NCBI GenBank assembly: GCA_035627955.1
Contig: DASPKU010000002.1
Location: forward strand, 22,277-86,276
Length of the DNA stretch: 64,000 nt
Reading direction: 5' to 3'
Origin: Phycisphaerales bacterium
GTDB lineage: Bacteria; Planctomycetota; Phycisphaerae; Phycisphaerales; UBA1924
Shown: positions 346-21,198 of the stretch, piece by piece
Layout of the letters: each line of letters begins with the position of its first letter
Position numbering within the stretch: the stretch's first letter is position 1
Program-made: the position numbers and the translations under genes
Notes under the pieces: generated by a model
The model's database searches: none
Seen by the model: only the letters and a program-made list of their open reading frames with translations
Told to the model about the DNA's origin: nothing

Positions 346-690
346 TTATTGACTTGCCTCGAGCAGTTCCACTAACGGCTCGCCGCGCTTGAGCAACTCA
401 ATCGCACGCGGCAGTGTCAGCGTGAAGTACTCCTTCAACGCACGATTCGAGGTGTTGCCCACACGGATCCAGAGCACCTGCGGAGGCGCATCGAGACGCG
501 TGACCAGGTCGGCGAAGTCCTCGTCCTTCGACAGAATCACGACCCCGGGCTGTCGCAGCGCTTGAAAGATGACCGCGTCGTCCTCGGTGTGCAGCGGCGT
601 GCCACGCACGTGGCGGCACTCGATCGTAAAGGTCGTGGCGATCCAGGGAGCGATAGCAGGCGGCAGCTGGTTGTCGACCCACAAGGTCAA
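346..690 (-). CDS. DUF5615-family (PIN-like / Mut7-C-like) putative toxin
   Basis: 114 aa. LWVDNQLPPAIAPW...ILSKDEDFADLV matches the DUF5615 pattern (N-terminal xDxNLP, internal D.DF). The TTG start overlaps the stop of the upstream DUF433 gene (TTGA). Confidence 0.7.
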   Translation of the reverse strand: MTLWVDNQLPPAIAPWIATTFTIECRHVRGTPLHTEDDAVIFQALRQPGVVILSKDEDFADLVTRLDAPPQVLWIRVGNTSNRALKEYFTLTLPRAIELLKRGEPLVELLEASQ

Positions 691-926
691 GCCGCCACCT
701 GACTGTGCGAAACTCGTTTCGCCGCGAAGACCAGCGCCGCCCGGATGTCATCCCGCTCAAGGTCCGGGTAGTCCGCCAGGATCTCGTCCTCGCCAACCCC
801 CGCCGCCAGCATCTCCAACACGTCCGAAACCCGGATGCGCAGTCCGCGGATGCACGGCTTCCCGCCGCACTGCCCGGGGCGCTGCGTGATCCTCTCGAGC
901 AAGGCCTTGTGCTGCCCATTGTCCAT
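687..926 (-). CDS. DUF433-family putative antitoxin
   Basis: 79 aa. GGKPCIRGLRIRVSDVLEMLAAGVGEDEILADYPDLERDDIRAAL is the canonical DUF433 signature. ATG at 924-926. It overlaps the downstream partner by 4 nt. Confidence 0.75.
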   Translation of the reverse strand: MDNGQHKALLERITQRPGQCGGKPCIRGLRIRVSDVLEMLAAGVGEDEILADYPDLERDDIRAALVFAAKRVSHSQVAA

Positions 927-1598: not shown

Positions 1599-3314
1599 GT
1601 GCGCCGCGCCGCTATCACCACCGCCTGCCTCAGCCTGCCCTTCCTGCTCGCCGCGTGCGAGGGCAACCCCTTCGCCGCCAATGATGGCGACTACGCCAAG
1701 CGCGTGGCCCTTGAGCGTCTCCGCGACATCCCGCCCTCGCGCCTCGAGGAGTTCAAGCGGCCCACGCCGCCGACTCCGCAGGATGCCGCGGCCGCCCGCC
1801 TGCGCTTCGCCGCTCTTGAGAAGCTCGATCTGCCGCTGGAGGAAGCCCGCGCCCAGGCCCTCCGCCACAACCTCGACCTCAAGGTTGCCCTCGTTAACCC
1901 CACCATCGCGGCCCAGCAGGTCTCCCTCGAAGAGGCCCGCTTCGAGTCCGCCTTCACCCTCCGCGCGGCCTACAGCGAGATCGACGCCCCCACCTCCTCG
2001 CAGCTGAGCGCTGCTCAGTCCAAGAACCTCACGCTCATCCCCGGCGTCCGCATCCCCACGCGCACGGGGGGCCAGGCCGTGGTCCGCCTGCCCATCCAGA
2101 AGAACGAGAACAACAACCCGTTCTCGACGCTCAACCCCGCATACAGCAGCGACCTGGAGTTCTCCCTCAGCCACGAGCTGCTCCGTGGAGCCGGGCGGCG
2201 CGCCAACACCGCCGCCCTCCGCATCGCCGGCTACAACCTTCAAGCGACTGAGGCCCAGACCAAGCTTGAGGTCATCCGCCAGCTCGCGGCCGTGGACCGC
2301 TCGTACTGGCGCCTCTTCCAGGCCCGGCGCGAGCTGGAGGTCGCGCAGCAGCAGTACGAGCTCGCCACCGATCAGGAGGCCCGCGCCCAGCGCCGTGTCG
2401 ACTCAGGCCTCGCGGCGCCGATTGAGGTCACCCGCGCCCAGGCCGGCAGCGCCGACCGCCTCGAAGCCATCATCGTCGCCCAGAACAACGTGCAGTTCCA
2501 GCAGCGCGAGCTCAAGCGCATCATCAACATCCCCGGCCTCACGCTCGACACCCAGACGATGGTCGTGCCAGCCTCCCCGCCCGACCCCGTCGAGTACGTC
2601 TTCGACACCTCGGCCCTCGTGAAGCAGGCGCTCGACAACCGCATGGAGATGCTCGAGCTCGAGCTCCGCCTCGCCGCCGACGCCGCCAATATCGCCTTTG
2701 CCCGCAACCAGACGCTCCCGCTGCTCACCCTCGACTACACCTACCGCGTCAACGGCCTGGGCGGCTCCACGCAGGACTCCTTCCACACGCTCCAGCGCAA
2801 CCGCTTCGAGGACTGGGAGCTCGGCCTCACCGCCGAAATCCCCCTGGGCAACGAGGCCGCCCGCTCGCGCCTGCGCTCGGCCATCCTCGAGCGCATCCAG
2901 CGGCTCTCAACGAAGCAGGCCCGCGAGCTCGCCATCACCCAGGAAGTGCTCAACGCCGTGGACGCCATCGACTCCGGTTGGCAGCGCGTGCTCGCGGCCC
3001 GGCAGTCGGTGATCCTGAACCGCCGCACCCTCCAGGCCGAGCAGCGGCAGTTCGACGTCGGTGGTTCCACCAGCACCAACGTGCTCGACGCCGCGACCCG
3101 CCTCGCCGAGGCCGAGTTCGCCGAGGCCCGCGCCCTCGCCGACTACCAGATCGCGCAGGTGGACCTCGCCTTCGCCACGGGCACGCTCCTGGGCGCCAGC
3201 AAGGTGACGTGGTCCCCCGAGCCTGAACCATCAACCGGCCAAGGAAATCCGGTGGAAGAACTCCCCAATTCCTCCGCCGCCGACAACACACCCACGCCCC
3301 CCGCCCAACCCTGA
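1599..3314 (+). CDS. TolC-family outer-membrane efflux lipoprotein
   Basis: GTG start and lipobox LPFLLAAC. Two long coiled/beta repeats with motifs typical of the outer membrane efflux protein family (LEEARAQALRHNLDLK..., ...DYQIAQVDLAFATGTL). Confidence 0.85.
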   Translation: MRRAAITTACLSLPFLLAACEGNPFAANDGDYAKRVALERLRDIPPSRLEEFKRPTPPTPQDAAAARLRFAALEKLDLPLEEARAQALRHNLDLKVALVNPTIAAQQVSLEEARFESAFTLRAAYSEIDAPTSSQLSAAQSKNLTLIPGVRIPTRTGGQAVVRLPIQKNENNNPFSTLNPAYSSDLEFSLSHELLRGAGRRANTAALRIAGYNLQATEAQTKLEVIRQLAAVDRSYWRLFQARRELEVAQQQYELATDQEARAQRRVDSGLAAPIEVTRAQAGSADRLEAIIVAQNNVQFQQRELKRIINIPGLTLDTQTMVVPASPPDPVEYVFDTSALVKQALDNRMEMLELELRLAADAANIAFARNQTLPLLTLDYTYRVNGLGGSTQDSFHTLQRNRFEDWELGLTAEIPLGNEAARSRLRSAILERIQRLSTKQARELAITQEVLNAVDAIDSGWQRVLAARQSVILNRRTLQAEQRQFDVGGSTSTNVLDAATRLAEAEFAEARALADYQIAQVDLAFATGTLLGASKVTWSPEPEPSTGQGNPVEELPNSSAADNTPTPPAQP

Positions 3315-3420: not shown

Positions 3421-5010
3421 TTGGTGCAGAGTCCCCATCTCCATGCCCCGATCGAAGGCGGCGGGTCCTTTCTGGCACGCCTCTTCGATGTCTCCGACTT
3501 CACCGCCCGCGTCATCTGCTTCAATCGCGACCCCAGCGTCGTCTGGCTGCACCTCGTCTCCGACACCATCATCGCCGCGGCCTACTTCTCCATACCGGTG
3601 GCCCTCATCACCCTCGTCCTCAAGCGGCGCGACCTCGCCTTCCCGTGGATGTTCGTCCTCTTCGGTGGCTTTATCCTCCTCTGCGGCACCACTCACGTCT
3701 TCAACGTCCTCGCCCTGCACTACCCCATGTACCGCTTCGACGGCGTGGTGAAGGCCCTCACCGCCGCGTTCTCGATCGGCACCGCCGTCGCGCTCTGGCC
3801 GCTCATCCCCAAGATCCTCACCATCCCCAGCCCGGACATGCTCCGCGAGGCCAACGCCAAGCTGGAGGGCCAGGTGGCCGAGCGCCGCAAGGCGCAGGAA
3901 GACCTCCAGCGGGCCCGCGACGAGCTCCAGCTCCGCGTCGATCAGCTCGAGAACGCCAACAAGGAGCTCGAGCTGTCGTACCAGCGCCTCCGCGTCTCGG
4001 AGCGCATGGCCGCGATCGGCACGCTCTCCGCCGGACTTGGGCACGACATGGGCAACCTGCTGCTGCCCGTGCGGGCCCGCCTCGAGTCCATCGAATCGCG
4101 CGGCGTGCCCGCCGAGCTGAAGGAAGACGTTGCCGCGATCCGCACCTGCGCCGAGTACCTTCAGCGCCTCTCCAAGGGCCTCCGCCTGCTCTCGCTGGAC
4201 CCGGAGGAGGGCGAGATGGAAGCGACTCCCGTCCGCGCCTGGTGGGATGAGGTGCGGCCGATGCTCGAGAACGCCATCCCCGAGTCCGTCGAGCTGCAGG
4301 GCGACTTTGGCGCGGATCTGCCGCCCGCGCTGCTCTCGCGCCACGGGCTCACGCAAGCCGTGTTCAACCTCGTGCAGAACGCCGGCGACGCCATGCGTGC
4401 CCGCGGGCACGGCCGGATCACCGTCTGGGCCCGCAAGGGCGCCGAGACCGACACCATCGACATCGGTGTGCGCGACAACGGCCCGGGCATGAGCGAGGAG
4501 ACCCGCCGCCGCTGCCTCGAGCCCTTCTTCACCACCAAGACCCGGGCTATCTCCACCGGCCTGGGGCTCGCGCTGGTCAACGGCATCATCCAACGCGCCA
4601 AGGGCACGATCGAGGTCCGCACGCAGCTGGGGCAGGGCTCCGAGTTCATCCTCCACCTGCGCGCCGCCCGCTCGCTCCGGCGGAGTGATGCGCCGCCGCT
4701 GCGGGCGGTGGTGTCGATTCCCGACGCCCGCCTCCGCAGCTTCACCTCCGAGCTGCTGAAGTCGCTGGGCTTCGAGGTTGTCGTTTCGGACGCGCCCGCC
4801 GACGGCTCCGCGAGCGTCTGGGTCGTTGATGCCAGTACCGGCTCACGCGATAAGGTGCAGGAGTTCGTGCGCGGCAGCGATCAACGCCGCGCCCTGATGC
4901 TCGGCGGCGACGGCTCGGACACCGACCGCGTCCGCATCGTCCGCGAGCCTCGCCCCACCGCCGTGCGCGCCGCTCTCGACCAGGCTGCGCACGAGCTGGG
5001 GCTGCGGTAA
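3421..5010 (+). CDS. sensor histidine kinase with an ethylene-receptor-like N-terminal membrane domain and a C-terminal receiver-like region
   Basis: Three N-terminal TM helices with SDTIIAAAYFSIP and FILLCGTTHVFNVL. Then a coiled coil, an H-box (GLGHDMGNLLLP) and an HATPase_c domain (N-box NLVQNAGDAM, G-boxes DNGPGM / GLGLALV). Only TTG/GTG starts are available (3421/3424). Confidence 0.85.
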   Translation: MVQSPHLHAPIEGGGSFLARLFDVSDFTARVICFNRDPSVVWLHLVSDTIIAAAYFSIPVALITLVLKRRDLAFPWMFVLFGGFILLCGTTHVFNVLALHYPMYRFDGVVKALTAAFSIGTAVALWPLIPKILTIPSPDMLREANAKLEGQVAERRKAQEDLQRARDELQLRVDQLENANKELELSYQRLRVSERMAAIGTLSAGLGHDMGNLLLPVRARLESIESRGVPAELKEDVAAIRTCAEYLQRLSKGLRLLSLDPEEGEMEATPVRAWWDEVRPMLENAIPESVELQGDFGADLPPALLSRHGLTQAVFNLVQNAGDAMRARGHGRITVWARKGAETDTIDIGVRDNGPGMSEETRRRCLEPFFTTKTRAISTGLGLALVNGIIQRAKGTIEVRTQLGQGSEFILHLRAARSLRRSDAPPLRAVVSIPDARLRSFTSELLKSLGFEVVVSDAPADGSASVWVVDASTGSRDKVQEFVRGSDQRRALMLGGDGSDTDRVRIVREPRPTAVRAALDQAAHELGLR

Positions 5011-5107
5011 GAACCGCGACCGTGAGGGAGCGATACGCCCGCGCCTGGCGGGCGTGGGTGTGTTCTGCACCAGCGGCGAAAGCCCCCGTCCCTTACGGTC
5101 GCGGTTC
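5011..5107. repeat. inverted repeat (19-nt arms, about 59-nt spacer) filling the convergent gap between the kinase and the response regulator
   Basis: Arm gaaccgcgaccgtgaggga (5011-5029) against tcccttacggtcgcggttc (5089-5107); 18 of 19 positions are complementary. Confidence 0.6.
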
Positions 5108-5118
5108 CTATCGGCGTC

Positions 5119-5550
5119 TCAGTGCACCCGCCGCCGCTTCAGTTCCGCCTCCACCTCCGACCCCATCGCGAACCCGCCCTTGGCCACCTGCTGGATGGCC
5201 GCGAGGATCGTCTCGGTGTTCTCGTTCTTGCTGACGTAGCCCCAGGCCCCCGCTTCCACGGCGCGGTCGATGTAGTCGGCCCGCACGTACCCGCTCAGCA
5301 TGATGACGCGGGCGTCGGGGCATTCCCCGGCGAGCTCCGCCAGGGCCTCGAACGAGTCCTTGCCGGGCATGTCGATGTCGAGCAGCACCACGTCCGCCCG
5401 CTTCTCCTTCACGGTCTTTACCAGGTCCCGCGCCTCGGGCAGCCACCCCGCCCATTCGAACGTCGGATCGAGCGACAGCTTGCGGCGGATCGCCTCCGCG
5501 ACAAAGTCATTGTCGTCGACGCAGAGCACACGGATCGCTTGCTCGGACAT
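5119..5550 (-). CDS. single-domain response regulator (CheY-like receiver)
   Basis: MSEQAIRVLCVDDNDF...VVLLDIDMPGKDSFE...VIMLSGY... shows the acidic pocket, the phospho-Asp and the conserved S/T and K context. ATG at 5548-5550. The longer track ORF (to 5799) runs through a tRNA gene. Confidence 0.85.
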   Translation of the reverse strand: MSEQAIRVLCVDDNDFVAEAIRRKLSLDPTFEWAGWLPEARDLVKTVKEKRADVVLLDIDMPGKDSFEALAELAGECPDARVIMLSGYVRADYIDRAVEAGAWGYVSKNENTETILAAIQQVAKGGFAMGSEVEAELKRRRVH

Positions 5551-5696
5551 GGACCTCGTTCCCGTCTCCGGAATTGGACTGGCAGATGATTCCATACTCG
5601 TACGTTGATTCAAGGCAGTACGAGGTGGCGGGTCCCGGGATGAATCCAATCTCACCAGTTCCTCAGAACCGGAGCGCCCGCCGAAGGGGAAACAAG

Positions 5697-5783
5697 CGGT
5701 GGGGAGGGGATTCGAACCCCTGATACCCTGACGGGTATACCGGTTTTCAAGACCGGCGCATTCGACCACTCTGCCACCCCACC
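5697..5783 (-). tRNA. tRNA-Ser (anticodon UGA)
   Basis: Manual fold of the reverse complement. Acceptor GGTGGGG/CCCCACC, D arm GCA-GAGTGGTCGAA-TGC, anticodon stem CCGGT/ACCGG with loop CTTGAAA (anticodon TGA), long variable arm TACCC/GGGTA, T arm AGGGG-TTCGAAT-CCCCT. CCA is not encoded. Confidence 0.85.
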
Positions 5784-5796
5784 CAGATGCCCGTGC

Positions 5797-5818
5797 CAAG
5801 ACCGTGCTGACGGTCGTG
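5797..5818 (-). terminator. GC-rich hairpin downstream of the zinc-finger gene; a near-identical copy lies at 39635..39658
   Basis: caagaccgt-gctg-acggtcgtg, a 9-bp stem with one mismatch. There is no clear U tract. Confidence 0.35.
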
Positions 5819-5835: not shown

Positions 5836-6174
5836 TTACTCCGGCTTCTTCCACCCTGATTCCGGGTCCTTCTGCATGATGGCCGCGGACTGCCGGATGC
5901 ACTTGGTGCACGCCCACGTGTCCTCCCGGAACCCGCGCCAGTGCGGCGTCTCCTGGTGCTGCAAGCAGAGCGCGCACGTGACCACCTCGGGCGCGGGCTC
6001 CCCGGCCCCATTTTTCACCACCATCGTGTACGCGATCGACAGGCATTGGCCGCAGATGAGCGACCCCCGGTGCCCCTCCACCATCGGGCGCGTGTCCGTC
6101 CAGTGGTTCCCGCAGAAGTCGCACAGGAAGTCCTCGGGCTGCAGGTTGTTCTCGTCGGTGCCCTCGCGGCGCAT
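5836..6174 (-). CDS. ClpX-type C4 zinc-finger domain protein (two CxxC...CxxC modules)
   Basis: CDFCGNHW...LICGQCLSIA resembles the ClpX N-terminal zinc-binding domain. A second module is CALC...CTKC. The internal ATG at 6172-6174 is preferred over the 6291 track start, whose upstream part is Arg/Ala-rich. Confidence 0.6.
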   Translation of the reverse strand: MRREGTDENNLQPEDFLCDFCGNHWTDTRPMVEGHRGSLICGQCLSIAYTMVVKNGAGEPAPEVVTCALCLQHQETPHWRGFREDTWACTKCIRQSAAIMQKDPESGWKKPE

Positions 6175-6336
6175 GCGGGAGGGTAAGCACCCACCGGCAG
6201 CCTGAGCGTCAGCGAGGGCATCGCCGCGCCTCGCGGCGATACGTGCGGCTGGGGTGCACCTCGGCGCGCCGCGACTCCACCGCCTCTCCATGGCCGCGAA
6301 GCGCGGCCATGCCCTTCCTCACGGTCGGGCTTCCTG

Positions 6337-8400: not shown

Positions 8401-10674
8401 TTACGGCTGATTCGGCGCGAACACCGGATCGGTCAGCGGCAGCCCCTGGCCCGACTGGTAGCCGCGCTGCATCGTCTGCCGCCCGTTGGTGGTATCCGTG
8501 CGAACGACGCTCACGATGCCCGCCGCAGACTGCGTGAAGGACGTCTGGCTGTTGGTGCCGGTACCGAACACCTGGATGGTGTAGTTCTGGAAGGCCGCGT
8601 TGCTCGCGATCTTGGCCAGCACCGCCGCGAGTGACTTGGTGGTGACGTCGGCCCGCCCGCGGGCGCCCAGGGTCCCCGAGGCGCCGTCGATGACGGTGCC
8701 GTCGTTGAAGATGAACCGCACGGTGTACGCAAAGTTCACGTCCGGGTCCGCGAAGGGGTTGAAGAGGCTGATCACCTCGCTCTGGTTCGCGTTGCTGGGG
8801 CTCAGCTGACCCGCGAAGAACAGGCTGGGCGAGATGCTCCGCGAGAACGCAGAGGTCATGCCGTCGGCCCGCTTGCCCGCCGTCACCGTGTTGCGCCCCA
8901 CGGCGTCGAAGCTCGTGTACTGGGCCGCGATCGGAGCCGTGGATGCGTACGTGACCGCGAACGTGGTGCCGTCGGCCACGCCCAGGTCCGTGGTCGTCAC
9001 CGAGAAGTCGTTGCGGCTGTTGGGCTGCACCAGCACCGTCCGCGTGGTGGCGGTGGTGTTGCTCGCGCCCGTAGGCCAGAAGGACAGCGTCACCGAGGCG
9101 GCGCTGCTGCCCATGTTGAGCAGGCTGATCACGTTGGTGAAGTTGTTCTTGGCCTGCACGAAGGCGATTCCGCCCTGCGTGGCGCCGCCGCCCTCAACGC
9201 CGATGAGGCCGAACGCCGGCGTGTACGCGGTCTGGGGGTTCTGGCCGCTGAGCGGCAGGTCCCAGTCGCTGGCGTTCACCACAAGGTCAACAGTGGAGGT
9301 CACGCGGGCCGACAGCGTGCCCGCGGGCAGGTTGAGGTCGGCCAGCTCGATGCCGCTGCGGCGGAAGGGCTCCACGCGCCGCGTGAAGGACTGCGTCCCG
9401 GTCGAGGTGCGGAAGGTGATCGTCACCGTGCCGGTCTGATCGCTCAGGTTCTGCCAGGTGATGAACTCGCGGCTGTTGCTGTTGCGCTCGATGCGGGGCA
9501 GGTCCCAGGTCCGCAGCGGGTTGGTCCCGCTGGGCGCCGCCTGCACGTTGTAGAAGTCGCTCGAGACCGCGCCGTTGAAGTCCACGCGGTGGGCCGTGGC
9601 CGAAACGGGGATCGGGTTGACCACCGTGCTCGCGAAGGCCGACTGGACTTCGACCGAGTACGGCGTGTTGCTGCGCACCAGGTTCAGGCCCGCCTGCGCG
9701 AAGTCCGACAGCTGGATCGTCATCGACTTGCGGGCGTCGATCGTGCCCTGGGCCACCACCACGTCGCGGATGCCCGTCTCGTAGTGAACGATGATCTGGT
9801 AGCTCGCCGGCACGTTATTGCCGTTGCTGATCACCACGCTCTCGGTGCTGGCGCCGCTGCGGAAGCCCTCGGGGTACACCAGCGTCTGGTTGAAGAAGCC
9901 CGCGGTCGTCGCCGGCTTGATCACCTCCGCGTTCACGATCGTGACGAGGTCGCGCTCGCGCACACCCGTCGTTGCGTTGAACCCGGCGTTGACCGGCACC
10001 GTGCTGAAGTTCGTCGACTCGGGGCCGGCGAACTTGGCCTGACCGGTGAGGTCCGGGTGCGCCAAGCCCTGGATCGTCTGCACCACGCTCCAGCCCTGGA
10101 TGATCCGCCCGAACACCGCGTACCCGCCGTTACCCTGGGCGTCGGGGTTCAGGAAGTCGTTGTCGACGTAGTTGATAAACCACTGGCTCGTGGCCGAGTT
10201 CAGGGCGTTCGTCCGCGCCATGGCGAGCGTGCGTGCATTGTTCTCGCGACCGGTCAGCTCGCGCACGATCTGGGCGTCGGTCTGCACGGTGGACAGCCCG
10301 GCCGTGTCGTCGAACTTGAAGCCGCCGCCCTGGAGGACGAAGGGCGAGTTGTCGGGGTTGAAGGCCGAGCGGTGGAAGAATGTCTCGTCGTAACGCCCGC
10401 TGGTGACGTAGTTGAGGAAGTTCTGCACCGTGATGGGCGCGGCGCTGTTGAACAGCTCGATGTCGAAGTCGCCGTAGTTGGTCTCGATCCGGACCACCGT
10501 GTTATTGGGGCTCTCGAGGTCCGCAATGGTGGGCAGCGGGCTGTTGGCCAGCAGCTTCCGCTGCTCCAGGCTCTCGAACGCGCTCACCTGCGGCGCCTTC
10601 CCGGTTCGGGTGGCCAGCAGACGCGCGAGCAGACCGGTGATCGACCGACCAGGGGACGCAATCATCGACAGCAT
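8401..10674 (-). CDS. secreted cyclophilin-type peptidyl-prolyl isomerase fused to a C-terminal beta-rich region of more than 500 aa with unknown function
   Basis: ATG at 10672-10674 and leader ...FESLEQRKLLAN. Cyclophilin motifs are present (VRIETNYGDFDIELF..APITVQNFLNYV..FHRS..VLQGGGF..LAMAR..SQWFIN). The remainder is Thr/Ser/Asn/Val-rich with no family I can name. Confidence 0.8.
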   Translation of the reverse strand: MLSMIASPGRSITGLLARLLATRTGKAPQVSAFESLEQRKLLANSPLPTIADLESPNNTVVRIETNYGDFDIELFNSAAPITVQNFLNYVTSGRYDETFFHRSAFNPDNSPFVLQGGGFKFDDTAGLSTVQTDAQIVRELTGRENNARTLAMARTNALNSATSQWFINYVDNDFLNPDAQGNGGYAVFGRIIQGWSVVQTIQGLAHPDLTGQAKFAGPESTNFSTVPVNAGFNATTGVRERDLVTIVNAEVIKPATTAGFFNQTLVYPEGFRSGASTESVVISNGNNVPASYQIIVHYETGIRDVVVAQGTIDARKSMTIQLSDFAQAGLNLVRSNTPYSVEVQSAFASTVVNPIPVSATAHRVDFNGAVSSDFYNVQAAPSGTNPLRTWDLPRIERNSNSREFITWQNLSDQTGTVTITFRTSTGTQSFTRRVEPFRRSGIELADLNLPAGTLSARVTSTVDLVVNASDWDLPLSGQNPQTAYTPAFGLIGVEGGGATQGGIAFVQAKNNFTNVISLLNMGSSAASVTLSFWPTGASNTTATTRTVLVQPNSRNDFSVTTTDLGVADGTTFAVTYASTAPIAAQYTSFDAVGRNTVTAGKRADGMTSAFSRSISPSLFFAGQLSPSNANQSEVISLFNPFADPDVNFAYTVRFIFNDGTVIDGASGTLGARGRADVTTKSLAAVLAKIASNAAFQNYTIQVFGTGTNSQTSFTQSAAGIVSVVRTDTTNGRQTMQRGYQSGQGLPLTDPVFAPNQP

Positions 10675-10964
10675 GCCTGACTCCAATCGGCGGCGACAGC
10701 GGCGGCCATTCCGGCCCGCCCCGCGCCCCCGGCTTGTGCATGTACACGGGCGCACGACCCGCGGTTCCGGGCGCCGCCCCACTCGGGCGCACCCGCACTC
10801 AATCCTACTCGAACCAGGTGACTTTGGCGCACCAAAATGCATGCGCTTTCAGTGCTTAGCGCGCAAGTCCCGTGCTGTCTCCCGCCCGTTTCTCCCCTCC
10901 GCGCCCGCCGATTCCCGGCGCAACACCCGAATGGGAGGGGGTTTGGCGTGTATACTCGCCACCA

Positions 10965-16932: not shown

Positions 16933-18513
<1,581 letters not shown>

Positions 18514-19128: not shown

Positions 19129-21198
19129 CTAGCTTGTCACAGTGGAAACCTTGGTTTTTCCACAAATTGCGGTTATCGGAGTGCTTTTCTCGCCCGGATC
19201 GGTGGTGATGCCCTTCCCCCACAGCAGCAGAAGGGAGTTCAGCACCACCAGCAGCGTCCCGCCCTCGTGGGCCAGCACCCCTACCGAGAGCGGCACTACC
19301 CGACCAGTCAACGAACCAACCAGCGTCGCCGCCGCCATCAGCACGATCACCGACACCGCGAATACCAGGTTCCGCTTCACCGTCGACCGCGCCTTGCGGG
19401 CCAGCCCCACTGCCCACGGCACCGCGGCCAGGTTGTCCGACAGCAGCACGATGTCGCTGCTCTCCAGCGCCGCGGCGGTGCCGATCGTGCCGATCCCCAC
19501 CGACACATCCGCCGCCGCCAGCGCGGGCGCGTCGTTCACGCCGTCGCCGATCACCCCCACCCCTCCCGACGCCCCCGTCTTGAGCTTCCGAACCGCCTCC
19601 AGCTTGTCCTGCGGCAGCAGCTCGGCCTCGAAGCCGTCGAGCCCCAGGGACTCGGCAATCCGCCCCGCCGTGAGACGGTTGTCCCCGGTCAGCATCACCA
19701 CCGGCTTGATGCCAAGGGCGTGCAGCTCGCGCACGAGCCCCGCCGCCCCCGGGCGCACCTGGTCGGCCATGATCAGCACGGCGGCGTCTCCGCCGGGGTC
19801 CTCCTCGGTCCCTGCTCCGGTCCCCGCACGGGCCACCACGACCGCCACGTGCCCGCGGTGCTGGATTTTGGTCAGCACCTCCTTGACGCGGTTGCGCAGG
19901 CACACGGGGATTACCTCCTCGGTGAACGCGTAGCTCCCCAGCCGCACCAGGGCCCCGCCGTCGGCCTGCCGCCCCTCGATGCCCCGTGCGGTGACGTGGT
20001 TGACGTCTGTCATCTCCACCGTCCCCACGCCCCGCTCCATCGCGGCCTCGCGCACCGCTGCGGCGATTGGGTGGGTCGAGTCCGCCTCCAGGCTGGCCGC
20101 GATCGCCAGCAGCTCGCGACCGTCGCTCCACGCCACCGGGTGCACCTCGTACAGGCGCGGCCGGCCGAATGTCAGCGTGCCCGTCTTGTCGAACGCCACC
20201 GCCGCCAGCCCGGCCAGCCGGTCGATGGACTGCCCACCCTTGAACAGCACTCCCTCGCGCGCGGCCCGCGCAATCGCCGCGAGCGTGGCCGTCGGCGTCG
20301 CGATCACCAGCGCACACGGCGACGCCACGATCAGCAGCGTGATGGCCGTGTACGCGGCGTCCGTCCACTCCCGCGCCAGCCCGAGCCACCACACGACAAA
20401 CACGACGACCGAGACCGCCATGACGCCCATTGCGTACGGCTCGCTCAGCCGGTCGATAGTCCGCTGCACCGGCTCGCGCTGCTCGCGTGCCTGGGTTACC
20501 AGGTCGAGGATCTTCTGGAGGCTGCTTTCTTTCACAGGTCGAAGCACGCGCGCAACGAGCGGGTCGTCGGTGTTGATCGTGCCGGCGTACAGCTCGTCGC
20601 CCGCCTTCACCGCCCGTGGCATCGACTCGCCGGTGATCGCCGACTGATCGATCGTCGACTGCCCCTCCACCACCACCGCGTCCGCTGGCACCCGCTCGCC
20701 CGGCCGCACCCGCAGCGACTCACCGATCACCAGCGACTCCGCGGGCGCCTCCACCCACTCGCCATCCCGCAGCACCAGGGCCTCAGTGGGCATCAGCTTG
20801 TGCAAAGCCTCCACCTCGCGCTTCGTGCGCTCCATCGCGAGGTCCTCCAGCGCCCCCGCGAGCACAAAGAGGAACAGCAGCAGCGCGCCCTCCTCCGGGT
20901 GGCCGATGTAGGCCGCGAGGCCGGCCCCCACGATCATGAGCACGTCGATGTCGAACTTCTTCTCGCGCAGGGACGCCCACGCCGCGCGACCGCCGTACAC
21001 CATCCCGATGGCCAGGCTCGCCCAGATGAACCCCTCGGCCCACCCGAGCTTCAGCCACACGTGCAGCACGTAGCCGAGCGCCAGCAGCACGCCTGCGACG
21101 ATCGACGCCCGCAGCTCAAACCGCGCCGTAAACACCGCCCGCGGGAACGCCCACGTCACCGGAGGATGGACCTCGCTCGCCCGCACCGGCTGCATCAC
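19129..21198 (-). CDS. heavy-metal P1B-type ATPase (SPC motif, no N-terminal HMA domain; P1B-4-like)
   Basis: DKTGTLT, TGES, MLTGDN and GDGVNDAPAL are present. TM6 carries the motif VASPCALVIATP. The N-terminus goes straight into TM helices. Confidence 0.9.
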   Translation of the reverse strand: MMQPVRASEVHPPVTWAFPRAVFTARFELRASIVAGVLLALGYVLHVWLKLGWAEGFIWASLAIGMVYGGRAAWASLREKKFDIDVLMIVGAGLAAYIGHPEEGALLLFLFVLAGALEDLAMERTKREVEALHKLMPTEALVLRDGEWVEAPAESLVIGESLRVRPGERVPADAVVVEGQSTIDQSAITGESMPRAVKAGDELYAGTINTDDPLVARVLRPVKESSLQKILDLVTQAREQREPVQRTIDRLSEPYAMGVMAVSVVVFVVWWLGLAREWTDAAYTAITLLIVASPCALVIATPTATLAAIARAAREGVLFKGGQSIDRLAGLAAVAFDKTGTLTFGRPRLYEVHPVAWSDGRELLAIAASLEADSTHPIAAAVREAAMERGVGTVEMTDVNHVTARGIEGRQADGGALVRLGSYAFTEEVIPVCLRNRVKEVLTKIQHRGHVAVVVARAGTGAGTEEDPGGDAAVLIMADQVRPGAAGLVRELHALGIKPVVMLTGDNRLTAGRIAESLGLDGFEAELLPQDKLEAVRKLKTGASGGVGVIGDGVNDAPALAAADVSVGIGTIGTAAALESSDIVLLSDNLAAVPWAVGLARKARSTVKRNLVFAVSVIVLMAAATLVGSLTGRVVPLSVGVLAHEGGTLLVVLNSLLLLWGKGITTDPGEKSTPITAICGKTKVSTVTS

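What the first reader, a model, noticed from the sequence alone, without database searches (positions are those of the whole stretch)
3538..3825. Histidine kinase with an ETR1-like ethylene-binding membrane module (Cu-ligand Cys and His conserved)
The three N-terminal helices align by eye with the Arabidopsis ETR1 ethylene-binding domain, as I recall that sequence. SDTIIAAAYFSIPVALITL aligns with SDFFIAIAYFSIPLELIYF. FGGFILLCGTTHVFNVL aligns with FGAFIVLCGATHLINLW. VKALTAAFSIGTAVALWPLIPKIL aligns with [24 protein letters not shown]. The Cys (codon 3682-3684) and His (3694-3696) equivalent to the Cu(I)-ligating Cys65/His69 are present, as are the helix-1 Asp/Tyr/Pro positions. Functional bacterial ethylene receptors are documented in only a few organisms. 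A CheY-like regulator lies convergently next door.
Basis: partly seen in the sequence, partly recalled or inferred. Interest (0 to 1): 0.65.

Follow-up and report, generated by a model that had tools for sequence, protein, structure and literature searches.

The report
Predicted bacterial ethylene-sensor histidine kinase
This gene from an uncultured Phycisphaerales (Planctomycetota) bacterium encodes a histidine kinase whose membrane part is a clear homologue of the copper-dependent ethylene-binding domain of plant ETR1, but such predicted receptors are very common in bacteria, so it is a good yet ordinary member of a known family.

Summary
ORF 3421/3424..5010 (+) encodes a 528-529 aa sensor histidine kinase. 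Residues 40-134 match Pfam ETR1_N (PF25487) end to end (E 9.4e-36, 122 bits against a cutoff of 27). They are 38% identical to authentic Arabidopsis ETR1 and 49% identical to the ethylene-binding domain of Azospirillum AzoEtr1, which has been shown to bind ethylene.

All seven ETR1 residues required for ethylene binding are kept: D25, Y32, I35, P36, I62, C65 and H69 correspond to D48, Y55, I58, P59, I85, C88 and H92. The Asp partner Lys91 (K111) and an N-terminal Cys (C33) are also kept.

The domain order is three transmembrane helices, a coiled coil, DHp (H208), an intact ATPase domain and a degenerate receiver-like tail. There is no GAF or PAS domain.

A 143-aa stand-alone response regulator (5119..5550, -) lies next to the kinase. 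It also lies next to all seven orthologues examined, so it is the likely partner.

The family is large, with 7,914 50%-identity clusters, and Pfam annotates it automatically. Ethylene or Cu binding was not and cannot be tested here. Verdict: new member of a known kind, moderate-to-low interest.

The parts
3421..5010 (+). Sensor histidine kinase gene. 529 aa from TTG 3421, or 528 aa from GTG 3424, which is the start gene callers use. Residue numbers below count from 3421.
   Evidence: ORF. Identical protein P0001 is called on 4 metagenome contigs. Orthologues at 47-78% identity align over the full length.
3517..3519 (+). Cys33 in the N-terminal tail, predicted periplasmic. It aligns with the ETR1 Cys4/Cys6 region that forms the dimer disulfide.
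   Evidence: Conserved in 216 of 221 relatives and aligned to ETR1 Cys4 in the multiple alignment. Invariant in A1 and A2. The outside location is inferred from the KRR loop after TM1 and the positive-inside rule.
3538..3825 (+). Ethylene-binding-domain homologue (Pfam ETR1_N), residues 40-135, with three transmembrane helices at about residues 38-68, 75-98 and 104-125.
   Evidence: Pfam E 9.4e-36. Hydropathy. AlphaFold models place helices at 37-67, 74-97 and 103-124 in GTG numbering, with mean pLDDT 88.8 for the domain.
3562..3564 (+). Asp48, equivalent to ETR1 Asp25.
   Evidence: Asp in 215 of 221 relatives.
3682..3696 (+). C88-G-T-T-H92, equivalent to the ETR1 C65-x3-H69 Cu(I) ligand motif in helix 2.
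   Evidence: Cys in 221 of 221 relatives and His in 219 of 221.
3751..3753 (+). Lys111, equivalent to ETR1 Lys91, the polar partner of Asp25 on helix 3.
   Evidence: Lys in 211 of 221 relatives. The role is taken from PMC10266040.
3808..4020 (+). Conserved P-x-x-L-x-x-P-S-P junction followed by a coiled-coil linker of about 60 aa. No GAF or PAS domain.
   Evidence: P130, P136 and S137 (A1/A2 columns P129, P135, S136 in GTG numbering) are invariant or nearly so. The model shows long helices at 137-162 and 169-226. Pfam finds no GAF or PAS.
4003..4194 (+). DHp (HisKA-like) helical hairpin. The phospho-acceptor His208 (codon 4042-4044) lies in the motif SAGLGHDMGNLL.
   Evidence: Weak HisKA hit at residues 200-258. 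Aligns to the CckA kinase 5idj. His invariant among orthologues.
4345..4665 (+). HATPase_c catalytic domain with N, G1 (DNGPGM), F (PFFTTK) and G2 (GLGL) boxes.
   Evidence: Pfam E 1.9e-21. PDB kinase matches. Invariant motif residues.
4693..5007 (+). C-terminal degenerate receiver-like (pseudo-receiver) domain, residues about 425-529.
   Evidence: Compact alpha/beta domain with pLDDT 82-90. An HMM of it hits the PF00072-annotated C-termini of Phycisphaerales hybrid kinases at about 1e-23. Pfam Response_reg is not detected. The acceptor position varies D/E/N, and the T/S and K positions are replaced.
5005..5113 (.). Nested inverted repeats in the convergent intergenic region. The outer arms are 25 nt. 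The inner GC hairpin is at 5034-5056. Plausibly a bidirectional terminator.
5119..5550 (-). Stand-alone response regulator, 143 aa. The receiver is NarL-like but has no DNA-binding domain. D12/D13, D58, S86 and K108 are intact.
   Evidence: Pfam Response_reg E 4.3e-21. A 132-143 aa orthologue lies adjacent to all 7 orthologous kinases examined. Alignment.
1599..3314 (+). TolC-like outer-membrane efflux protein (OEP), 106 bp upstream on the same strand. It is a conserved neighbour, but nothing shows that it belongs to the system.
   Evidence: Pfam OEP 3.8e-38. Upstream of the kinase in the loci of P0002, P0004, P0006 and P0007, but not of P0009, P0011 or P0012.

Best explanation
The gene encodes a membrane sensor histidine kinase of the ethylene-binding-domain (EBD) family, in an uncultured Phycisphaerales bacterium. 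Shown here: three N-terminal transmembrane helices are homologous to the ETR1/AzoEtr1 EBD and carry every residue known to be needed for Cu(I) and ethylene binding. They connect through a conserved PxxLxxPSP junction and a coiled coil of about 60 residues directly to a complete DHp-CA kinase core (His208), followed by a degenerate receiver-like domain. A fully competent stand-alone receiver protein is encoded next door in every orthologous locus examined. Inferred: the dimeric EBD holds Cu(I) through Cys88 and His92, with Asp48 orienting the His. Ethylene dissolved in the membrane binds the copper. The change is passed on through the Asp48-Lys111 contact to helix 3 and down the coiled coil. 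Autophosphorylation on His208 is altered, probably inhibited by analogy with ETR1 and SynEtr1. This changes phosphotransfer to Asp58 of the 143-aa regulator. The regulator has no DNA-binding domain, so it must act through protein-protein contacts on an unknown target.
For: The Pfam ETR1_N match is full length, E 9.4e-36. Identity is 38% to verified ETR1, with Cys/His/Asp/Lys in register, and 49% (E 2e-35) to the AzoEtr1 EBD, whose first 130 aa bind 14C-ethylene saturably (PMC11819568). D48, Y55, I58, P59, I85, C88, H92 and K111 are present, and each is conserved in at least 211 of 221 relatives. The three-helix model has pLDDT 88.8. The kinase motifs are intact, and the closest solved structure is the CckA kinase. 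A receiver-only regulator lies adjacent in all 7 orthologous loci. It is convergent in four and co-directional or overlapping in three, even where the other neighbours differ. The regulator is 87-92% identical among the close loci, with all catalytic residues intact. The validated AzoEtr1 system has the same layout, an EBD kinase plus a 135-aa regulator without an output domain (PMC11819568).
Against: No binding or phosphotransfer data exist for this protein or for any planctomycete homologue. The organism is known only from metagenomes, and its habitat and exposure to ethylene are unknown (one search found no paper citing the samples). No copper chaperone or Cu(I) ATPase lies in the 64 kb. 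The only P-type ATPase has SPC/HEGGT motifs, which I know as the Co/Zn type. The regulator is not orthologous to AzoRR (21% identity), and its output cannot be deduced. The sign of the response is by analogy only. The linker in this clade is offset by one residue from the heptad series of its sister clades, so the polarity could differ.
Confidence: 0.62

Rival explanations
1. The module is a true EBD homologue that binds Cu(I), but in this non-plant bacterium it senses something other than ethylene. Candidates are another small unsaturated or pi-acid molecule (other alkenes, CO, isocyanides), or copper or redox status itself.
For: Only two bacterial EBDs have been tested (PMC11819568), against 7,914 sequence clusters. 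The host is a Phycisphaerales MAG with no evident link to plants. The local genes give no hint of ethylene biology.
Against: All residues that define ethylene binding in ETR1 are retained under strong conservation. Both tested bacterial EBDs that carry them bind ethylene, and this one is 49% identical to one of the two. Ethylene is also produced abiotically and by microbes in water and soil (PMC7700396).
Confidence: 0.22
2. The three helices serve mainly as a membrane anchor and dimerisation element, or have another activity such as the ion permeability recently claimed for plant receptors. On this reading the kinase is regulated elsewhere, for example through the pseudo-receiver.
For: The C-terminal receiver-like domain is conserved and could receive input. 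Ca2+ permeability has been reported for plant ETR1 and ERS1 (bioRxiv 10.1101/2025.10.20.683334).
Against: A simple anchor would not keep polar, metal-binding intramembrane residues (D, C, H, K) nearly invariant across 221 relatives. The protein has no other sensory domain. Permeability has not been tested for any bacterial homologue.
Confidence: 0.08
3. The similarity is a chance resemblance of hydrophobic helices, or the ORF is not a real gene.
For: None beyond the general caution that transmembrane segments can align spuriously.
Against: Pfam E 9.4e-36. BLASTP to ETR1 E 6e-18 with composition correction. Full-length orthologues in conserved synteny.
Confidence: 0.01

Closest known systems
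AzoEtr1 / AzoRR(etr1) of Azospirillum brasilense (PMC11819568)
   Same: N-terminal three-helix EBD, 49% identical, with the same essential residues. Total size is similar (525 against 528 aa). It is a histidine kinase paired with an adjacent stand-alone receiver protein of about 135-143 aa that has no output domain.
   Different: AzoEtr1 has a PAS domain between the EBD and the kinase, whereas this protein has only a coiled coil. This protein adds a C-terminal pseudo-receiver. The regulators are not orthologous (21% identity). In the window the regulator gene is convergent rather than overlapping downstream. The host is a planctomycete, not a plant-associated alphaproteobacterium.
Arabidopsis ETR1 (UniProt P49333), a subfamily-1 plant ethylene receptor
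   Same: The EBD is 38% identical and in register for D25, Y32, I35, P36, I62, C65, H69 and K91. An N-terminal Cys is present. The histidine-kinase core carries all catalytic boxes, and a receiver-type domain sits at the C-terminus.
   Different: No GAF domain. The receiver-like domain is degenerate. Output is presumably canonical His-Asp phosphotransfer to a separate regulator rather than CTR1/EIN2. The protein sits in the cytoplasmic membrane rather than the ER. It has one N-terminal Cys instead of two.
SynEtr1 (slr1212) of Synechocystis PCC 6803
   Same: A bacterial EBD histidine kinase that signals by phosphotransfer to a neighbouring response regulator (PMC11819568, PMC6682694).
   Different: SynEtr1 is bifunctional, with a light-sensing phytochrome-like domain between the EBD and the kinase. 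Its regulator slr1213 activates transcription (PMC11819568). Here there is no second sensor, and the regulator has no DNA-binding domain. I did not compare the SynEtr1 sequence directly.

Membership tests
Ethylene-binding-domain family (Pfam PF25487 ETR1_N) | Profile match above the curated threshold and over the whole domain | tested here: met
   122.4 bits against a cutoff of 27, E 9.4e-36, profile positions 2-96 of 97.
Ethylene-binding-domain family (Pfam PF25487 ETR1_N) | Three N-terminal transmembrane helices | tested here: met
   Hydropathy windows. AlphaFold helices at 37-67, 74-97 and 103-124 with pLDDT above 90.
Ethylene-binding-domain family (Pfam PF25487 ETR1_N) | Cu(I) ligands Cys65 and His69 (C-x3-H) in helix 2 | tested here: met
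   C88 and H92 align ungapped with C65 and H69 of verified ETR1 and in the 221-sequence alignment.
Ethylene-binding-domain family (Pfam PF25487 ETR1_N) | The other residues required for ethylene binding (Asp25, Tyr32, Ile35, Pro36, Ile62) and Lys91 | tested here: met
   D48, Y55, I58, P59, I85 and K111. The residue list comes from PMC11819568 and PMC10266040.
Ethylene-binding-domain family (Pfam PF25487 ETR1_N) | N-terminal cysteines that form the disulfide-linked dimer (ETR1 Cys4/Cys6) | tested here: inconclusive
   A single Cys33 is conserved in 216 of 221 relatives and aligns with ETR1 Cys4. Disulfide formation is not testable here.
Ethylene-binding-domain family (Pfam PF25487 ETR1_N) | Saturable, Cu(I)-dependent ethylene binding | not testable with these tools
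   Needs a 14C-ethylene radioligand assay and Cu(I) titration of the expressed domain.
Plant ETR1-type receptor (EBD-GAF-HK-receiver) | GAF domain between the EBD and the kinase | tested here: not met
   No GAF hit at E<=1. The EBD-to-His distance is only about 71 residues, and these are modelled as coiled coil.
Plant ETR1-type receptor (EBD-GAF-HK-receiver) | C-terminal receiver domain with the canonical phospho-acceptor pocket | tested here: inconclusive
   A receiver-related fold is present. Pfam Response_reg is not detected. The T/S and K positions are replaced, and the acceptor Asp is not conserved among orthologues.
Bacterial two-component EBD sensor kinase (SynEtr1/AzoEtr1 type) | EBD fused to a catalytically complete histidine kinase (H, N, G1, F and G2 boxes) | tested here: met
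   HATPase_c E 1.9e-21 with a weak HisKA hit. H208 and the ATP-binding boxes are invariant among orthologues. Matches the CckA kinase structure 5idj, E 5.5e-24.
Bacterial two-component EBD sensor kinase (SynEtr1/AzoEtr1 type) | Cognate response regulator encoded next to the kinase | tested here: met
   A 143-aa receiver lies at 5119..5550. An orthologue is adjacent in 7 of 7 orthologous loci. Phosphotransfer itself is not testable here.

The most novel reading that the evidence does not exclude
A free-living, uncultured Phycisphaerales planctomycete uses a minimal ETR1-type copper and ethylene sensor, an EBD wired straight to the kinase through a coiled coil. It acts with an unusually conserved stand-alone receiver protein to respond to environmental ethylene from photochemical or microbial sources. 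This would extend functional ethylene perception to a phylum and a lifestyle with no link to plants. The system would also be the simplest natural EBD-to-kinase transmitter available for structural work.
Probability: 0.45. Interest if true: 0.45.

Novelty: new member of a known kind. Interest (0 to 1): 0.3.

Why it matters
If the protein binds ethylene, it would add a third bacterial lineage, and the first planctomycete, to the short list of experimentally supported ethylene receptors. It would also support the view that ethylene is a general environmental cue rather than a plant-specific hormone. The protein is practically attractive for two reasons. Its EBD joins the kinase without any intervening GAF or PAS domain. 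No EBD structure exists in the PDB. A small, single-input receptor with a defined partner regulator is therefore a reasonable target for cryo-EM and for in vitro reconstitution of the path from ligand to kinase. The discovery value is limited, because thousands of such predicted receptors are already in the databases and are recognised by a Pfam model.

Tried and rejected
1. PDB sequence search. It found only kinase-core matches and nothing for the EBD. Foldseek with the confident EBD model against the PDB gave no significant neighbour (best E 0.8, complex I subunit K-like three-helix proteins). So there is no structural template.

2. Word-indexed homologue search with the EBD alone. It returned only 45 short fragments and no plant or named proteins, so it was of little use. 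The exhaustive HMMER search and an exact look-up of ETR1 replaced it.

3. Scan of GTDB genomes. It returned mostly kinase-domain paralogues and no orthologue from a named species. Taxonomy was taken instead from the LysRS gene.

4. Paper search for the sample and assembly accessions. It found none, so the habitat is unknown.

5. Search for a nearby copper-delivery gene. The only P-type ATPase (19129..21198) lacks an HMA domain and has SPC/HEGGT motifs. I rejected it as a Cu(I) supplier.

6. Second EBD in the window. There is none.

7. The ClpX-zinc-finger protein beside the regulator, considered as a possible target by analogy with CpdR and ClpX. It is conserved in only two of the seven orthologous contexts, so I did not adopt it.

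8. Tad pilus genes beside the regulator. They appear in one orthologous locus only, so they are not general.

9. Sigma-70 promoter scan. It found nothing.
Full report
**1. What is there**

The finding lies in ORF 3421..5010 (+), which is 529 aa from TTG 3421. Gene callers start it at GTG 3424, giving 528 aa. The identical protein occurs on four metagenome contigs, one of them a 241-kb ENA assembly contig. Coordinates 3538..3825 are residues 40-135. The window has 68% G+C. Its lysyl-tRNA synthetase (16933..18513, -) has only Phycisphaerales, Phycisphaeraceae or Planctomycetota proteins among its named best hits, at 66-74% identity. The host is therefore an uncultured Phycisphaerales bacterium. 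No paper in the library cites the sample accessions, so the habitat is unknown.

**2. Checking the observation**

- **Pfam.** ETR1_N (PF25487, 'Ethylene receptor 1-like, N-terminal domain') matches residues 40-134 over profile positions 2-96 of 97. E is 9.4e-36 and the score is 122.4 bits against a cutoff of 27.
- **ETR1 reference.** An exact-sequence look-up returned it as UniRef100_P49333 / NP_176808 'Ethylene receptor 1', so the comparison rests on the authentic sequence.
- **BLASTP.** The match is 38% identity over 99 residues, E 6e-18, and ungapped through helices 1 and 2.
- **Residue register.** D48=Asp25, Y55=Tyr32, I58=Ile35, P59=Pro36, I85=Ile62, C88=Cys65, H92=His69. After one 3-residue gap in the loop, K111=Lys91.
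- **Why these residues.** They are the seven residues reported as necessary for ethylene binding to AtETR1 (PMC11819568, citing Wang et al. 2006), plus the Lys proposed to bridge to Asp25 (PMC10266040).
- **Conservation.** In a 221-sequence alignment of relatives that includes ETR1, these columns are nearly invariant: Cys 221/221, His 219/221, Ile58 221/221, Pro59 220/221, Tyr 218/221, Asp 215/221 (5 Asn), Lys 211/221.
- **N-terminal Cys.** Cys33 is present in 216 of 221 sequences and aligns with ETR1 Cys4, one of the dimer-disulfide cysteines.
- **Transmembrane helices.** Hydropathy shows three segments. An AlphaFold model of residues 1-144 built on 44 sequences has mean pLDDT 88.8, with helices at 37-67, 74-97 and 103-124.

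**3. The rest of the protein**

After helix 3 comes a junction, P-x-x-L-x-x-P-S-P, that is invariant among orthologues and nearly invariant across the wider family. Long helices follow (137-162 and 169-226 in the full-length model). They run into the DHp hairpin, which carries His208 in the motif SAGLGHDMGNLL.

Pfam finds no GAF or PAS domain. The catalytic domain is intact: HATPase_c scores E 1.9e-21, and the N, G1, F and G2 boxes are invariant among orthologues. The closest solved structures are CckA and ZraS kinase cores.

The last 105 residues or so form a compact alpha/beta domain with pLDDT 82-90. An HMM of this domain hits the C-terminal domains of Phycisphaerales hybrid kinases at about 1e-23. 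Those domains are annotated PF00072. Pfam Response_reg does not detect the window's copy. In alignments the acceptor position varies D/E/N among orthologues, and the conserved T/S and K positions are replaced. I read it as a pseudo-receiver.

**4. Neighbourhood and partner**

The kinase gene ends at 5010. The convergent gene at 5119..5550 (-) encodes a 143-aa receiver-only protein (Pfam Response_reg E 4.3e-21). The longer mechanical ORF, which extends to 5799, overlaps a tRNA-Ser(tga) gene at 5696..5783.

I looked up seven orthologous kinases at 47-78% identity. Each has a 132-143 aa receiver-only gene at its 3' end.

| Orthologues | Orientation of the regulator gene |
|---|---|
| P0002, P0004, P0006, P0007 | convergent |
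| P0009, P0011, P0012 | co-directional, overlapping or nearly so |

The adjacency holds even where the other neighbours differ completely. These regulators are orthologous, at 87-92% identity in the close loci and 45-51% in the distant ones. D12/D13, D58, S86 and K108 are invariant. Their best NCBIfam matches are NarL/UvrY-type receivers, but they stop after the linker and have no DNA-binding domain. This conserved adjacency is the main evidence that the regulator is the cognate partner.

A TolC-like OEP gene (1599..3314) lies upstream in the four closer loci but not in the three distant ones. Nothing ties it to the system functionally. No copper chaperone, Cu(I) ATPase or ethylene-related enzyme was seen. 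The P1B ATPase at 19129..21198 has SPC and HEGGT motifs and no HMA domain. From my own knowledge that marks the Co/Zn subgroup.

**5. How it most likely works**

Shown here: homology, retention of the ligand-binding residues, a complete kinase and a conserved partner.

Inferred from ETR1, SynEtr1 and AzoEtr1 work (PMC10266040, PMC11819568):
- Topology is N-out. The KRR loop after TM1 is cytoplasmic, and Cys33 is periplasmic.
- The dimer binds one Cu(I) per monomer through Cys88 and His92, with Asp48 assisting.
- Ethylene binds the Cu(I).
- The Asp48-Lys111 contact passes the change to helix 3 and the coiled coil.
- His208 autophosphorylation changes. By analogy it is probably inhibited.
- The phosphorylation state of Asp58 on the stand-alone regulator changes in turn, and the regulator acts on an unknown protein target.

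The sign of the response and the output are the weakest steps. The distance from the PSP junction to the His is 71 residues in the window's clade and 86, 100 or 107 in sister clades. The values 86, 100 and 107 differ by multiples of 7, whereas 71 is offset by 15, which is 2x7+1. The coiled-coil register, and possibly the polarity, may therefore differ from that of the relatives.

**6. Comparison with what is known**

The EBD is 49% identical (E 2e-35) to that of AzoEtr1. The AzoEtr1 sequence was taken from S1 Fig of PMC11819568, and the extracted text appears to have dropped a few residues. The first 130 aa of AzoEtr1 bind ethylene saturably. AzoEtr1 is also followed by a 135-aa regulator with no output domain. 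The layouts match, except that AzoEtr1 has a PAS domain and the regulators are not orthologous (21% identity). Plant ETR1 differs from this protein by having a GAF domain, by its downstream CTR1/EIN2 pathway and by its ER location. SynEtr1 differs by having a photosensory domain.

The module is not rare. An exhaustive HMMER search of 1.84 billion cluster representatives found 7,914 proteins at E<=1e-3, 5,600 at E<=1e-10 and 260 at E<=1e-30. Of the 99 closest representatives, all 99 carry ETR1_N, 67 carry HATPase_c, about 34 carry PAS, 27 carry a receiver and only 2 carry GAF. An EBD fused to a histidine kinase is therefore the standard bacterial architecture. EBD proteins turned up in genomes labelled Bryobacterales, Acidobacteriota, Rhodospirillaceae, Alphaproteobacteria, Pseudomonas syringae and Phycisphaerales. 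Reviews already state that many bacteria carry predicted EBDs with diverse outputs (PMC7700396), and a conservation analysis of 1,221 sequences has been published (PMC10266040). I found no paper that combines ethylene receptors with Planctomycetes, but that is absence of evidence in a partial library.

**7. Verdict**

The protein passes every sequence-level membership test for the EBD family and for the bacterial two-component EBD kinases. It fails the GAF test for plant-type receptors. It is a new and typical member of a known kind, and standard pipelines would annotate it. Its modest interest rests on three points: a phylum without experimental data, a minimal architecture suited to structural work because no EBD structure exists in the PDB, and a very conserved orphan regulator with an unknown output. 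Ligand binding is the decisive unknown and needs wet-lab assays.

Noticed in passing
window 5696..5783 (-): tRNA-Ser (anticodon TGA) lies between the response-regulator gene and the ClpX-zinc-finger gene. It sits inside the mechanically extended 226-aa ORF 5119..5799, so the first 83 residues of that ORF are not real.
   Followed up: yes
window 4693..5007 (+): The C-terminal 105 residues or so of the kinase form a confidently modelled alpha/beta domain. It is related to the receiver domains of Phycisphaerales hybrid kinases but is degenerate. Pfam does not detect it, the acceptor Asp varies D/E/N among orthologues, and the T/S and K positions are replaced. It is a pseudo-receiver of unknown role.
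   Followed up: partly
window 5005..5113: Nested inverted repeats fill the convergent intergenic region between the kinase and the regulator. The outer arms are 25 nt (5005-5029 and 5089-5113, 88% complementary) and overlap the kinase stop codon. The inner element is an 8-9 bp GC hairpin at 5034-5056. It is probably a bidirectional terminator. It is absent from the P0002 locus, where the gap is only 24 bp.
   Followed up: partly
window 3829..4044 (+) and alignment A1: The linker from the PSP junction to the phospho-acceptor His comes in discrete lengths among orthologues: 71, 86, 100 and 107 aa, with one of 83. The values 86, 100 and 107 differ by multiples of 7. The window's clade (71) is offset by 15, which is 2x7+1, and this suggests a coiled-coil register shift.
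   Followed up: partly
window 5119..5550 (-) and L084, L086, L089: The stand-alone regulator is more conserved than its kinase. It is 87-92% identical where the kinases are 59-78% identical. It carries a GAWGY(V/L)SK motif and a short conserved tail, GGFAMGSEVEAELKRRR. This resembles a NarL-type regulator cut off before its HTH domain.
   Followed up: partly
window 5836..6291 (-): A small protein (112 aa as called by gene callers) with a ClpX-type C4 zinc finger (Pfam E 1.3e-08) lies just beyond the tRNA next to the regulator. It keeps this position in the P0002 and P0004 loci but not in more distant ones. A link to the regulator, by analogy with CpdR and ClpX, is pure speculation.
   Followed up: partly
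window 19129..21198 (-): A 689-aa P1B-type heavy-metal P-type ATPase (TIGR01525, E 1.7e-160) with no N-terminal HMA domain. It has SPC and HEGGT transmembrane motifs, which to my knowledge mark the Co/Zn-type P1B-4 subgroup. It is not a Cu(I) pump and is unlikely to supply the sensor.
   Followed up: partly
window 346..926 (-): An adjacent DUF5615 (114 aa) and DUF433 (79 aa) gene pair with overlapping ends. It has a toxin-antitoxin-like arrangement and is conserved on the sister contigs.
   Followed up: no
window 8401..10842 (-): A large protein (757-813 aa) with a cyclophilin-type peptidyl-prolyl isomerase domain, followed by a long Thr/Ser/Asn-rich C-terminal region. It is syntenic in the P0002 and P0004 loci, between an MsbA-like ABC transporter and GT2 glycosyltransferases.
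   Followed up: no
P0006 locus (JGI 3300047160, no DNA held): In one orthologous locus the regulator is followed directly by a Tad/Flp pilus cluster (TadG-like, Flp pilins, prepilin peptidase, TadE, RcpC). This is suggestive because ethylene receptors control pili and biofilm in Synechocystis and Azospirillum. But it was seen in only one of seven contexts.
   Followed up: no
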